A program made the position numbers. From an uncultured Thermococci archaeon (GTDB lineage Archaea; Methanobacteriota_B; Thermococci; Thermococcales; Thermococcaceae), in the NCBI GenBank assembly GCA_964615185.1, contig CAZTOS010000069.1, positions 1 through 11,176 of the forward strand: 11,176 nucleotides of DNA, given 5' to 3'. Below are positions 3,001-6,000 of the stretch, in pieces. Position 1 is the stretch's first letter. Each line of letters opens with the position of its first letter.

Positions 3001-6000
3001 AGATTTACGAACCGGAAATTGGTTATTACAAGATTCTAACCTGATATCTTTTTATTTATCCTTTTTTATGAAAAAATAAAAGAAAGCTCAGTACTGCTCT
3101 CTCATGGTTCTTATAACCGGATCATAGATGAGTGTTGAGGTTATGCTGTCAACCATTCTGAAGAATTCTTCCTTTCCTTTTTCAATTTCTGCATTGTCTA
3201 CGTTGATAACCTTGCATTTATCTCCAAGAATCCATTTTCCAAGAATTATCTTCTCCTTTCCATTGTGTGTTGCATCAATCCTTATGAGTCCATAGGGAAC
3301 GTCTGCAGTCCACCAGTTGGCTTTAAATTTTATCTCCCATCCAAGTTTCTCAAGCTCCTTCACCATGAGGTCCATTGTTTCTCCAGGACCATAGGGAGTT
3401 TTGAAAGTGATTATGAGCCACAATTCTTTGTTCTCAAGGTTATTTTTGAATATCTCTTCAAAAATCATAATCTCACCCCCGTTGTAATTGAACCCAATAA
3501 AAAGCTAAACACAGCCAGATAAATTGCGGCTTTTAATTTTTTCTGAGCTTTTCCAGCAGCAGAGGCGGGATTTTTCAGAAGCTCAAAAACTGCCATTAGT
3601 ATCAATCCATCAACAATAATCATGGGTAGGTATCCTACCCCAATCCCTGCATTTACGGGTAGAAATGATGCCACTACAGTTGCGATTCCAAATAGCGATG
3701 CTAAATATGCCGATTTTTTTATCCCCCATATAATTGGCAAAGTTTTTGCCCCTTTTGCCCTGTCCCCTTCAATGTCCTCGATATCCTTCATGATTTCCCT
3801 TGCCAGATTCACCAGAAATGCGCATAATGCTAAATATCCGGCTAATCCAATTTTGCCTACTGCAATCGCACCATATAGGGGAGTTGCCCCAGTTAAGCTT
3901 GCAACCATTATATTTCCAATGATTGGCAATGGCTTAAGTTTCCATGCGTAGATAAACAGAACAAAGTACGCAGTTACCGCCAAGAGGAATGCGTATATGT
4001 TGAGTTGATAAGCCAGAACAAGACCAATAACAAATAAGAGTATTGCATACCAAAATGCGGTCTTTCTTGACATCGCTCCCCTTGGCAGAGGTCTTGTAGG
4101 GCGGTTGATTTTATCAATCTCATAGTCAAAGTAGTCATTTATTGTATTCCCGGCACTGCATCCAAAAAACACAACTGCAAAGATTAACACTGCTGTTTTT
4201 ATTTCGGGGAAATGCCCTAATGCCACAATAGAGCCTAATATGCCAACTAATCCAGCTACAAAACAGTTATGGGGTCGTAATATCTCGATAAAGGCTTTGG
4301 GGTCCATTAGGAGCACCTAATATAAAGAAAATTGTGGGGTATTAAAACCTTTTCCTAAAGCGCATTTCTGTCCAATAACCCGAGTTCCTCACCATCTTCT
4401 CGAACCCTAATCCTTCCAAATCTTATCTCCCTAACTTTTTCCATTGCCCTTTCATCCAAAGGTGTTAGAAGCTCAGCTTTCATCTCTTTGAAGTTTATGA
4501 ACTTAAGAATTCCCAGTCCAATACAAAAGCCCTCTTTATCAATCATACCAAGAATCAAATTGCTTAATTTCTCAAAATCAACGTACTGCAGAACGTTCTT
4601 GTCAACCTGTCTTGGGATATTGGCAATATCTGCCTTTACAATAAGGTATTTCCCACCAATCTTTCTTCCGTGAATGATTAACCATTTAAACAATGCCTCT
4701 AAGAGAGACTTTTCATTCTCATTGATCTCTTCACCTTGAAAAATCTGGGTTCCGCTTATAATAAAGTGACCCAGATTTACTGTGTATGACTTTGAGTCTC
4801 TGAAGTACTCCTTCCACTTCTCTTTTCGTATCTCCCTTCTCTCCTCTCTGCTGAATTTTCGAACTTTTTTACTAACTTCAAGACGGAAAATTTGAACTTT
4901 CTCTTCGAATGGCTTTAATATTGGCTCTAATTCATTTTCTTTCTGTAATGCAACTATTACATCAGGTTTAACAGTTTCAATTTTCATTCTCTTAAGCTCA
5001 ACACCTGCACCGCTGATCATGCCTGTGGTATCTATAATAATCACATCGGCTTTCTTCTCTGCTTCATCCGTGAGCAACTTAACCCCTGCAATCATCTCTC
5101 CAAAAAACTGATTTGGGGTGATGCTCCCCACAAAGTAATGTTTATATGCCTTTATATCTCCAAATGATTCAAACAATCCCTCTGGAAAACCAAGACTTAT
5201 TGTGGCCGGTGGAAGAATTCCTTTTTGTCCGATGTCACTGTCTACTATTGCGACCCTAAACCCTGATGACAGGAGTTCATTTGCTAAAAATGTTGCCAAT
5301 GTCGTTTTTCCGGTATCAACTCCACCCAGAATCATTATCTTAACTGGTTTTTCATGTCCATTTAGAACATTCAAAAGTTCCTTCCTGTCCTCTGGAACCT
5401 CTTGAGTATATCTTGCCTTATTCATGCTTATAACTTCTTCAACTTCAATAAAAAGTTAACTTCGGAAAAAATTTATATTTACGATTCAGTAAACAGATGA
5501 ACATATGGATTTCATTTTACAAAAACCAAAAACTTTATTAAACTCTGAAAGTTTAACTTTATAATTGACAAGGAAAAAATTAAGGAGGGTTAAATGATGG
5601 AGGAAAAAGTTTCACTTACCACTCGACAAATTGAGCTCTTGAGAAAGCTCTACAAAGAGGGCAAGACAATCGAGGTACACACAGTTGAAAAAACTCAGGA
5701 CGAACTTGCAGAGGAGCTTGGAATTACAAGACAGGCGCTGAGTAACCATCTTAAGGTTTTGAAGGAGCTTGGTTATATAAGGACCGGAAGGGGCTTTATA
5801 GACCTCACAGAAAAGGCATTAGAACTCCTTGGTGAAAGAAAAGGTGATGTTTTTGTTTTTGTCAAAATTGAGCCAACAAAGAGGAAGCAGGTCTATGATG
5901 CAATAAAGAAGCTTAAGGTCAAGAGAGTTTACAGAGTTACTGGAGACATTGATTTAATTGTGGAAGCTGACAAAACGAGACTTGATGAGATCCTTGAGGA

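What a model noticed while it worked through the whole genome (the two positions that open the first line are those of the whole stretch)
3088..4307. An orphan, highly conserved 126-aa protein family is fixed directly downstream of DGGGP synthase (archaeal lipid prenylt [...]
g02052 (C69:3088-3468, 126 aa, no Pfam/NCBIfam/Swiss-Prot match) overlaps by 4 nt the stop of g02053, the UbiA-family DGGGP synthase. The two-gene unit is kept in every other genus examined. The protein is soluble, strongly constrained (54 of 126 positions invariant, motifs ANWWTADxPYG and VDSIxSTxIxDPxIRTMREQY) and restricted to this lineage, so it is proposed as a partner or regulator of DGGGP synthase; its predicted alpha/beta fold has no clear solved relative.
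Evidence so far: Same strand, 4-nt overlap. Orthologue in 22 of 22 Thermococcaceae genomes sampled, 0 of 2 of the sister family. In 5 of 5 genomes from 3 other genera the orthologue starts 6-20 nt after the synthase gene on the same strand (coordinates of calls 171, 183). Profile search of 1.84 billion representatives: 9 clusters at E<=1e-3, 6 at E<=1e-10. 9 orthologues: mean column identity 79%. Model pLDDT 83.3, pTM 0.77; Foldseek PDB nothing at E<=1e-3; phmmer PDB nothing under E 0.5.
(Added by a program. Inside this text positions count along the whole contig: contig position 1 is position 1 of the stretch shown here. "Call 12" and the like, gene names such as g00115 and contig names such as C1 are that model's own, and its searches are not shown. 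The text may have been shortened before it was handed on; [...] marks where a part breaks off. The agent that wrote the report below was given it as the finding of a first reader that could run no searches.)

Follow-up and report, generated by a model that had tools for sequence, protein, structure and literature searches.

The report
Small conserved protein coupled to lipid synthase
A 126-residue protein of unknown family is made together with the archaeal membrane-lipid enzyme DGGGP synthase in every Thermococcus-type genome checked, yet published pull-down data place its relative on the pyruvate and ketoisovalerate oxidoreductases, so its partner may be a central energy enzyme and not the lipid enzyme.

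Summary
ORF 3088-3468(-) encodes a 126-aa soluble protein whose ATG overlaps the TGA of a UbiA-type DGGGP synthase (ATGA). It has no Pfam, NCBIfam or PDB relative, and its predicted alpha/beta fold has no clear match (best Z 6.3). The pair is intact in 35 of 35 genomes inspected, across all six genera of the family. It survives a cassette inversion in two genera and loss of both flanking genes in a third.

Three things are new.
- **Not an orphan.** Thermococcaceae carry two paralogue groups. One sits directly upstream of ilvB (acetohydroxyacid synthase) in 7 of 8 genomes, and those genomes lack a canonical small subunit. The other is a tail-less form of about 92-95 aa.
- **The database name is unsupported.** "Ribonucleoside-triphosphate reductase" fails a profile comparison (hhalign probability 0.1%).
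- **Pull-down data point elsewhere.** The T. kodakarensis orthologue TK1958 is transcribed without a transcription start of its own. In the supplementary AP-MS tables of a 2025 paper it co-purifies with 5 of 7 tagged POR/VOR subunits and with none of the other 18 baits. DGGGP synthase never appears.

Best reading: a small accessory protein of ThDP-dependent 2-oxoacid enzymes, expressed from the lipid-synthase operon. A DGGGP-synthase partnership is unproven.

The parts
3088..3468 (-). Group-A gene: a 126-aa soluble protein (14.9 kDa, pI 5.3). It has an alpha-beta-alpha-beta4-alpha core and an invariant C-terminal tail that ends at the last residue (...DPVIRTMREQY).
   Evidence: ORF. No family match. 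Alignments. Model, with the low-confidence tail. pI and MW. Orthologue detected by mass spectrometry.
3465..4307 (-). DGGGP synthase (UbiA family), 280 aa from the ATG at 4307; an in-frame GTG lies at 4316. Both Asp-rich motifs are present.
   Evidence: PF01040 E 9.6e-47. NF009522 484.1 bits against cut-off 353, with the model starting at residue 4 of the GTG form. Motifs NDYFDYEID and DIEDIEGD read.
3472..3480 (-). Shine-Dalgarno-like GGGGGTGAG inside the 3' end of the synthase gene, 3 nt before the ATG of the small gene. This is the translational-coupling signal.
   Evidence: Sequence. Equivalent GGAGGTGA or GAGGTGA motifs at or overlapping the synthase stop in the 30 loci printed.
4340..4354 (-). 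Likely promoter of the two-gene unit: a purine-rich stretch followed by TTTTAATA, 33-40 nt before the synthase ATG (inferred).
   Evidence: Sequence. In T. kodakarensis the primary TSS lies 9 nt before the ubiA start. The BRE/TATA assignment is my reading, not a tool result.
3071..3085 (-). T-runs (TTT, TTTT, TTTTTT) directly after the stop codon: a likely archaeal oligo-T terminator, in a 43-nt convergent spacer shared with RPA32 (inferred).
   Evidence: Sequence. RPA32 ends at 3044.

Best explanation
The ORF encodes a real, expressed, soluble 15-kDa protein of a Thermococcaceae-restricted family with no detectable sequence or clear fold relative.

**Expression (shown or well supported).** It is produced from the DGGGP-synthase transcript by translational coupling.

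**Partner (inferred from an orthologue's pull-down data and a paralogue's gene context).** Its most likely physical partners are the ThDP-dependent 2-oxoacid enzymes pyruvate:ferredoxin and 2-ketoisovalerate:ferredoxin oxidoreductase (POR/VOR). It would dock on them as a low-abundance accessory protein, either regulatory or adaptor.

**Mechanism (inferred).** The compact alpha/beta core carries the invariant ANWWTAD(I/V)PYG hairpin. The invariant, poorly ordered C-terminal amphipathic helix acts as a docking peptide.

**Family logic.** The ilvB-linked paralogue would do the same job for acetohydroxyacid synthase, in genomes that lack the canonical ACT-type small subunit.

**Open.** Why its synthesis is tied to DGGGP synthase is unexplained. 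Two options are matching its dose to membrane-lipid synthesis, which draws on POR-derived acetyl-CoA (established pathway knowledge), and simple use of a constitutive essential promoter.
For: **Real and expressed**
- It is as constrained as the essential neighbour: 79% against 77% column identity.
- TK1958 has RNA reads in the T. kodakarensis libraries and no TSS row of its own, while ubiA has a primary TSS.
- TK1958 peptides give 2-11 spectral counts in tagged samples (one tagged replicate of the TK1983 bait gave 0). Controls give 0 in 8 of the 9 bait-condition tables; the TK1978 minus-sulfur table may be the exception (see the Against line).

**Orthology**
- The protein at L025:1504-1881 is letter for letter T. 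kodakarensis BAD86147.1, 126 aa.
- It is 64.6% identical to the window protein and lies 5 nt after the synthase.
- This matches the TK1957/TK1958 coordinates.

**POR/VOR link**
- TK1958 is a significant prey, at rank 4-5 of 5, for baits TK1978 (shared gamma), TK1979 (VOR delta) and TK1982/1983/1984 (POR delta/alpha/beta). That is 9 bait-condition rows.
- It appears for no other of the 25 baits.
- With tagged gamma and no sulfur, the whole partner list is 10 proteins: 7 POR/VOR subunits, 2 rubrerythrins and TK1958.
- The five-bait intersection with sulfur is TK1958, TK1978 and TK1984.

**Family link to a second ThDP enzyme**
- Group-B paralogues lie directly upstream of ilvB-ilvC-leuA on the same strand in 7 of 8 genomes.
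- ilvB occurs in 8 of 97 genomes, and 7 of these carry group B.
- TIGR00119 (AHAS small subunit) passes its cut-off in 0 of 5 of them, against 13 of 14 control genomes.
- Group B has the same predicted fold and tail.

**Tail and partner availability**
- The tail is invariant to the last residue but has block pLDDT of 56 and 51.
- The own genome has 6 PF01558 (POR gamma-type) genes.
Against: **Limits of the pull-down data**
- They come from one study's supplementary tables. The authors do not discuss TK1958.
- Counts are low next to the POR subunits: 2-11 against 47-786 for the other rank-5 partners in the TK1978 tables.
- The VOR alpha and beta baits did not recover it.
- No reciprocal pull-down exists.
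- In the TK1978 minus-sulfur table the columns as I read them are ambiguous for one control value (row 29).

**Limits of the comparative data**
- The ilvB link is gene order only, and related genomes are not independent.
- One group-B copy (G083) has no ilvB beside it.
- The tail-less paralogue TK1385 is not in the pull-down tables.
- IOR and OGOR, also ThDP enzymes, did not recover TK1958.

**What this reading does not explain**
- It gives no reason why the gene is fixed behind DGGGP synthase in 35 of 35 genomes, through rearrangements that cut exactly at the ends of the pair.
- DGGGP synthase was never a bait, so a second, membrane partner is not excluded.
Confidence: 0.5

Rival explanations
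1. One reading: the protein is a cytoplasmic partner or regulator of DGGGP synthase itself. It would dock on the enzyme's cytoplasmic face or at the membrane interface through the Trp-rich hairpin and the C-terminal helix.
For: - Strict adjacency with translational coupling in 35 of 35 genomes from 6 of 6 genera.
- The pair moves as a unit: it is inverted between rpa32 and clp1 in two genera, and both flanks are replaced in a third.
- Sequence constraint equals that of the synthase.
- There is a single TSS for the pair in T. kodakarensis.
Against: - No direct evidence of contact exists.
- TK1957 is absent from all four AP-MS supplementary files, while TK1958 is found with POR/VOR.
- The paralogues sit with a soluble enzyme (ilvB) or in unrelated contexts, so the family is not tied to UbiA enzymes.
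- The only member outside the family, on metagenome contig L048, has no prenyltransferase within 2 kb.
Confidence: 0.2
2. Bridge model: the protein binds both. It tethers part of the POR/VOR pool to DGGGP synthase at the membrane, or reports acyl-CoA supply to lipid synthesis.
For: - It reconciles the operon link with the pull-downs.
- 50 of 126 residues are invariant, more than one small interface would need.
- Sub-stoichiometric counts fit a partial pool.
Against: - TK1957 was not recovered with any POR/VOR bait, although membrane hydrogenase subunits do appear in such lists.
- This is purely inferential.
Confidence: 0.1
3. No specific partner: a small housekeeping or stress protein that merely rides on a constitutive promoter. 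Its recovery with the very abundant POR/VOR preparations would be adventitious.
For: - Spectral counts are low.
- The TK1979 bait list contains many unrelated nucleic-acid enzymes.
- Compact archaeal genomes hold operons of unrelated genes (general knowledge).
Against: - Counts are zero in controls in 8 of the 9 bait-condition tables, and the protein is absent from the lists of the 18 baits outside POR/VOR.
- It is one of only three non-POR/VOR proteins in the very short gamma-subunit lists.
- An invariant C-terminal tail argues for a specific binding partner.
Confidence: 0.15
4. Database name taken at face value: a (fragment of) anaerobic ribonucleoside-triphosphate reductase.
For: Many NCBI and UniRef records carry this name, including the P. 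furiosus record AAL82086.1.
Against: - Profile comparison with the genome's own 621-aa NrdD gives probability 0.1%, E 0.68, over 16 columns.
- There is no PF13597 or any other Pfam hit.
- No RNR appears in the PDB sequence search or among the listed fold matches.
Confidence: 0.01

Closest known systems
Acetohydroxyacid synthase small (regulatory) subunit IlvN/IlvH (ACT domain; TIGR00119)
   Same: - Both are small soluble proteins encoded beside a ThDP-dependent pyruvate-using enzyme.
- The group-B paralogue sits beside ilvB in genomes where TIGR00119 is missing.
- The N-terminal strand / Gly-Pro loop / helix / strand pattern recalls an ACT domain. That resemblance is recalled, not tested.
   Different: - No sequence match was found.
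- No ACT chain is listed among the fold matches.
- The topology has four consecutive strands after the first helix.
- The gene lies upstream, not downstream, of ilvB.
C-terminal alpha/beta domain of DapB-like amine dehydrogenases and GFO/IDH/MocA oxidoreductases (e.g. 6iau)
   Same: It is the best structural match for both models: Z 6.3 (rmsd 3.9, 92 residues aligned) for group A and Z 7.1 (rmsd 3.8, 94 residues aligned) for group B.
   Different: - Z is below the tool's own level for a meaningful match (8).
- Identity is 5-11%.
- There is no Rossmann domain.
- The resemblance may be only a common alpha/beta arrangement.
Extra POR-operon proteins PorE/PorF of methanogens (recalled from the literature, not checked here)
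   Same: Additional small proteins functionally attached to a four-subunit POR.
   Different: PorE/PorF are Cys-rich iron-sulfur proteins encoded in the por operon. This protein has at most one Cys and is encoded with a lipid enzyme.

Membership tests
Anaerobic ribonucleotide reductase NrdD (PF13597), the name many records carry | Sequence similarity to the NrdD catalytic or glycyl-radical region | tested here: not met
   hhalign of A1 against the genome's own NrdD gives probability 0.1%, E 0.68. No Pfam hit.
AHAS small subunit (TIGR00119 / ACT) | Match to the family model | tested here: not met
   No NCBIfam hit for group A at E<=0.1 and none to TIGR00119 for groups B or C at E<=1. The only related row is a 12-bit IlvM match (E 0.14) for group C.
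AHAS small subunit (TIGR00119 / ACT) | beta-alpha-beta-beta-alpha-beta ACT fold | tested here: inconclusive
   No ACT chain is among the 50 rows listed, but absence from a list does not exclude the fold.
AHAS small subunit (TIGR00119 / ACT) | Activates AHAS or confers valine sensitivity on it | not testable with these tools
   Needs an enzyme assay.
GFO/IDH/MocA or DapB-type C-terminal domain | Clear structural superposition, attached to a Rossmann domain | tested here: inconclusive
   Z 6.3 and 7.1, below 8. The protein has no Rossmann domain (126 aa).
NRF1/EWG DNA-binding domain | Significant sequence or fold match | tested here: inconclusive
   A motif-level hit at E 0.13, 15 bits. It is not listed in the fold searches. 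The protein is acidic, pI about 5-7.
UbiA-family DGGGP synthase (the neighbour gene) | Equivalog model over cut-off and both Asp-rich motifs | tested here: met
   NF009522 at 484.1 bits against 353. Motifs read.
Subunit or accessory protein of POR/VOR | Reproducible co-purification with the complex | tested here: inconclusive
   Published AP-MS tables for the orthologue show 5 of 7 POR/VOR baits and 0 of 18 others. There is no reciprocal experiment and nothing for this organism.

The most novel reading that the evidence does not exclude
The family is a previously unrecognised class of small accessory subunits for ThDP-dependent 2-oxoacid enzymes in Thermococcales. Group A would serve POR/VOR, and group B would replace the missing ACT subunit on acetohydroxyacid synthase. 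Group A would in addition physically or regulatorily couple acyl-CoA production by POR/VOR to archaeol synthesis by DGGGP synthase. That second role would explain why the two genes have stayed translationally coupled through every rearrangement.
Probability: 0.12. Interest if true: 0.85.

Novelty: categorically new. Interest (0 to 1): 0.62.

Why it matters
- **An overlooked POR/VOR component.** POR and VOR carry most of the carbon and electron flux in these fermentative hyperthermophiles and have been treated as four-subunit enzymes. A universally conserved fifth, low-abundance component would change how their regulation is studied and how they are engineered for hydrogen production.
- **A link to membrane lipids.** DGGGP synthase makes the second ether bond of every archaeal membrane lipid, and no protein partner or regulator is known for it to my knowledge (recalled; searches found none in print). 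A gene that ties it to acetyl-CoA production would be a first handle on how lipid synthesis is matched to metabolism.
- **AHAS without a small subunit.** The ilvB-linked paralogue suggests how Thermococcales run acetohydroxyacid synthase without the canonical small subunit.
- **Testable now.** All of this can be tested directly in the genetically tractable T. kodakarensis.
- **Annotation error.** The widespread database name 'ribonucleoside-triphosphate reductase' is wrong and should be dropped.

Tried and rejected
- **Complex prediction**, DGGGP synthase (alignment A4) with the 126-aa protein (A3): score 0.00 in both runs, controls not run, no verdict. This is no evidence either way.
- **The look-up of sequencing runs** for RNA over window 3000-4400: none was listed.
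- **ESM Atlas:** no usable hit.
- **NRF1 DNA-binding-domain lead** (E 0.13): dropped. The shared letters are group-A specific, no fold match is listed, and the protein is acidic.
- **ACT and VOC (glyoxalase) fold ideas:** only Z 4-5.2 for single beta-alpha-beta-beta-beta modules, which is not usable.
- **P0095 and P0097** from the representatives search: rejected as repeat-protein noise.
- **Tail-less paralogue TK1385:** absent from the AP-MS tables.
- **Other papers' supplements:** those of the T. kodakarensis ferredoxin paper could not be read. The protein-tethering paper holds neither TK1957 nor TK1958.
- **Literature searches** for the locus tags and accessions and for DGGGP synthase with Thermococcus or Thermococcales: no paper discusses this protein. 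Of the two PF1962 hits, both from substring matching in papers on other subjects (seen as listing only), I opened neither.
- **Jäger 2014 supplement:** files 13-15 were not searched.
- **Group D** (metagenome contig L048): only 4.5 kb of context, no informative neighbour.
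Full report
**What is in the window**

On the minus strand lie three genes in a row.
- A Clp1-type P-loop kinase at 4355-5425 (PF16575, E 2.5e-48).
- A UbiA-family gene at 3465-4307/4316 (PF01040 E 9.6e-47; NF009522 DGGGP synthase, 484.1 bits against a cut-off of 353).
- A 126-codon ORF at 3088-3468.

The ATG of the small ORF overlaps the TGA of the synthase (ATGA). 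A GGGGGTGAG stretch lies 3 nt upstream of that ATG. The RPA41/14/32 genes converge from the plus strand and end at 3044. T-runs fill the 43-nt spacer. The small protein has no Pfam or NCBIfam match at E<=0.1. It is soluble and mildly acidic: 14.9 kDa, pI 5.3, one Cys, five Trp.

**Conservation and distribution**

A word-indexed search found 90 relatives at E<=0.01 among 102 candidates. Every one that carries an organism name is from Thermococcus, Pyrococcus or unnamed Thermococcaceae/Thermococci.
- In 37 sequences, 34 columns are invariant. These include ANWWT..PYG and the last eleven residues up to the C-terminal Tyr.
- In 21 genomes the protein's mean column identity is 79%, against 77% for DGGGP synthase from the same genomes.
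- A six-frame search of 133 genomes of the class found it in 95 of 96 other genomes of the family. The one miss is 73% complete.
- It was found in 0 of 36 genomes of the other five families.
- The own genome has one copy.

**Gene order**

In 30 of 30 loci (29 other genomes plus the own) the synthase lies directly upstream on the same strand, with a gap of -4 to +13 nt. A GGAGGTGA or GAGGTGA motif lies at, and in most loci overlaps, the synthase stop.

Five more genomes, covering the two genera not yet sampled, show the same pair. The flanks are not constant.
- In four genera the order is rpa32> <small <synthase <clp1.
- In two genera the two-gene cassette is inverted in place: rpa32> synthase> small> <clp1.
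- In a third genus neither rpa32 nor clp1 is beside it (L015 and L021).

The pair has therefore survived at least two rearrangements whose breakpoints fall exactly at its ends. Related genomes are not independent, so this counts as a few events and not 35.

**Expression**

The protein encoded at L025:1504-1881 is identical to T. kodakarensis BAD86147.1. It is 64.6% identical to the window protein.

I searched supplementary files 1-12 of Jäger et al. 2014 (PMC4247193); files 13-15 were not searched.
- TK1957 (ubiA) lies at 1765214-1766047.
- TK1958 lies at 1766053-1766433.
- A primary TSS sits at 1765205.
- There is no TSS row for TK1958.
- TK1958 has read counts in the libraries.

This fits one transcript for both genes. 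No RNA run was listed for the window itself.

**Structure**

AlphaFold2 on the 37-row alignment gives pLDDT 87.6 and pTM 0.80, with helix 2-10, strand 17-24, helix 27-41, four strands between 45 and 93, and helix 95-111. The invariant tail is predicted as a short helix (117-125) with block pLDDT of only 56 and 51.
- Foldseek against the PDB has no match at E<=1e-3; the best is 4.2e-3.
- VIA-align against 48,161 chains gives a best Z of 6.3 (6iau_A, rmsd 3.9, 92 residues aligned), with 3 chains at Z>=5 and none at Z>=8.
- The second-look run agrees.
- The PDB profile search has nothing better than E 0.13.

The fold is not assignable. The best resemblance is to the C-terminal alpha/beta domain of DapB-like and GFO/IDH/MocA dehydrogenases, below the tool's own level of meaning.

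**The database name**

Many records call the protein '(anaerobic) ribonucleoside-triphosphate reductase'. A profile comparison with the genome's own 621-aa NrdD gives probability 0.1%. I take the name as an inherited annotation error.

**The family is larger than one group**

The exhaustive search of 1.84 billion representatives returned 9 proteins at E<=1e-3. Two of them are long repeat proteins matched on 40-47 residues, which I reject. The genome search and a second profile search show three further groups.

*Group B* (about 116-133 aa, 30-38% identical, tail D..LRNM..RY)
- It occurs in 8 of the 97 family genomes.
- In 7 of these 8 it lies directly upstream of ilvB-ilvC-leuA on the same strand.
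- ilvB itself occurs in 8 of 97 genomes, and 7 of those carry group B. The eighth has only a truncated ilvB match in an 81%-complete, 190-contig assembly.
- One group-B copy (G083) has no ilvB beside it.
- The canonical AHAS small subunit (TIGR00119) passes its cut-off in 0 of 5 of these genomes, against 13 of 14 control genomes.
- Group B has the same predicted fold and the same lower-confidence C-terminal helix (pLDDT 89.5). Its best Z is 7.1, again to 6iau_A.

*Group C* (92-95 aa, no tail, acidic end)
- It gives a second, weaker match in most genomes of the family.
- Its neighbours vary.
- In the own genome it is broken.

*Group D* (118-122 aa, tail ...ALRLLR.QY)
- It is known only from metagenome contigs.
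- On the one with context it stands alone, between a TPR-rich ORF (my reading of its sequence, not scanned) and an unassigned membrane protein next to a SIS-domain ORF (PF01380) that I read as GlmS-like. The contig is visibly AT-rich.

**Published interaction data**

I searched the supplementary tables of Williams et al. 2025 (PMC12016516). I read passages of the main text, searched supplement files 1-4, and read part 12 of file 1. The study did affinity purification and mass spectrometry with 25 tagged redox proteins of T. kodakarensis.
- TK1958 is a significant prey at rank 4 or 5 of 5 for five baits: TK1978 (the gamma subunit shared by POR and VOR), TK1979 (VOR delta), TK1982, TK1983 and TK1984 (POR delta, alpha, beta). 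That makes nine bait-condition rows.
- It appears for no other bait, including geranylgeranyl reductase TK1088.
- Counts are 2-11 in tagged samples (one tagged replicate gave 0) and 0 in controls in 8 of the 9 tables. In the TK1978 minus-sulfur table one control value is ambiguous as I read the columns.
- With tagged gamma subunit and no sulfur, the full list is ten proteins: the seven POR/VOR subunits, two rubrerythrins and TK1958. With sulfur it is fourteen proteins, with the same ten at rank 5.
- The intersection of all five baits with sulfur is TK1958, TK1978 and TK1984.
- The main text never names TK1958: one search found no paper with that word, and one search showed no relevant passage.
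- TK1957 occurs in none of the four files, but it was not a bait.
- TK1385, the group-C orthologue, is also absent.

*Weak points.* The counts are far below those of the POR subunits. The VOR alpha and beta baits did not recover TK1958. No reciprocal experiment exists.

**Putting it together**

*Shown.* The gene is real, translated, strongly constrained, restricted to Thermococcaceae (apart from group D), and expressed as the second cistron of the DGGGP-synthase unit.

*Inferred.* Two independent lines point to ThDP-dependent enzymes of the pyruvate / 2-ketoisovalerate node. One is pull-downs for group A. The other is gene order and co-occurrence for group B. The enzymes are POR and VOR for group A and acetohydroxyacid synthase for group B.

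I therefore read the family as small accessory proteins of these enzymes, with the invariant, poorly ordered C-terminal helix as a docking element.

*Unexplained.* Why group A is locked to DGGGP synthase. A second contact with the synthase or the membrane is possible and was not tested by anyone. My one complex-prediction job gave no verdict.

**Novelty**

No paper in the searchable library discusses this protein or the pair. There is no family model and no fold relative. It counts as a new protein family with a testable, unexpected link between central energy enzymes and membrane-lipid synthesis.

Noticed in passing
L035:9759-10199(+) with ilvB at 10274-12025; L036:4998-5396(-); L038, L039, L040, L042, L043: A paralogue group (group B, 30-38% identical, same fold and tail type) lies directly upstream of ilvB-ilvC-leuA in 7 of 8 genomes that have it. 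These genomes lack a canonical AHAS small subunit (TIGR00119 over cut-off in 0 of 5). It may be a non-canonical AHAS regulatory subunit.
   Followed up: partly
G000:C12:5126-5287(-) = L045:1498-1593 region: The own genome's copy of the tail-less paralogue (group C, about 92-95 aa elsewhere) is broken. Only a 31-codon ORF for the C-terminal part remains, and the match contains a TAG stop. It lies between a HAD-like hydrolase and a metallophosphoesterase, as in related genomes.
   Followed up: partly
L051, L052, L054 and L053, compared with window 2229-5425: In two genera the DGGGP synthase / small gene cassette is inverted in place between rpa32 and clp1, so that rpa32, the synthase and the small gene share a strand. 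The breakpoints fall exactly at the ends of the pair.
   Followed up: yes
L048:1977-2345(+): A divergent member (group D, tail ...ALRLLR.QY) sits on an AT-rich metagenome contig, apparently outside Thermococcaceae. It stands alone, beside a TPR-rich ORF (not scanned) and a 245-aa membrane protein with no Pfam match.
   Followed up: partly
window 3088-3468(-) and public records: Many NCBI and UniRef records name this protein '(anaerobic) ribonucleoside-triphosphate reductase'. Profile comparison with the real NrdD of the same genome gives probability 0.1%, so the name is a propagated annotation error.
   Followed up: yes
window 8112-9356(-): A 414-aa ORF with a Cas12f1-like TNB domain (PF07282, E 4.4e-23), that is, a TnpB/IS200-IS605-type element. 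It is inserted between ribosomal protein S6e (7676-8053) and aIF2-gamma (9489-10736).
   Followed up: no
window 4355-5425(-): A Clp1-type polynucleotide kinase-like P-loop protein lies about 40-50 nt upstream of the synthase on the same strand in most Thermococcus genomes. T. kodakarensis has separate primary TSSs for it and for ubiA.
   Followed up: partly
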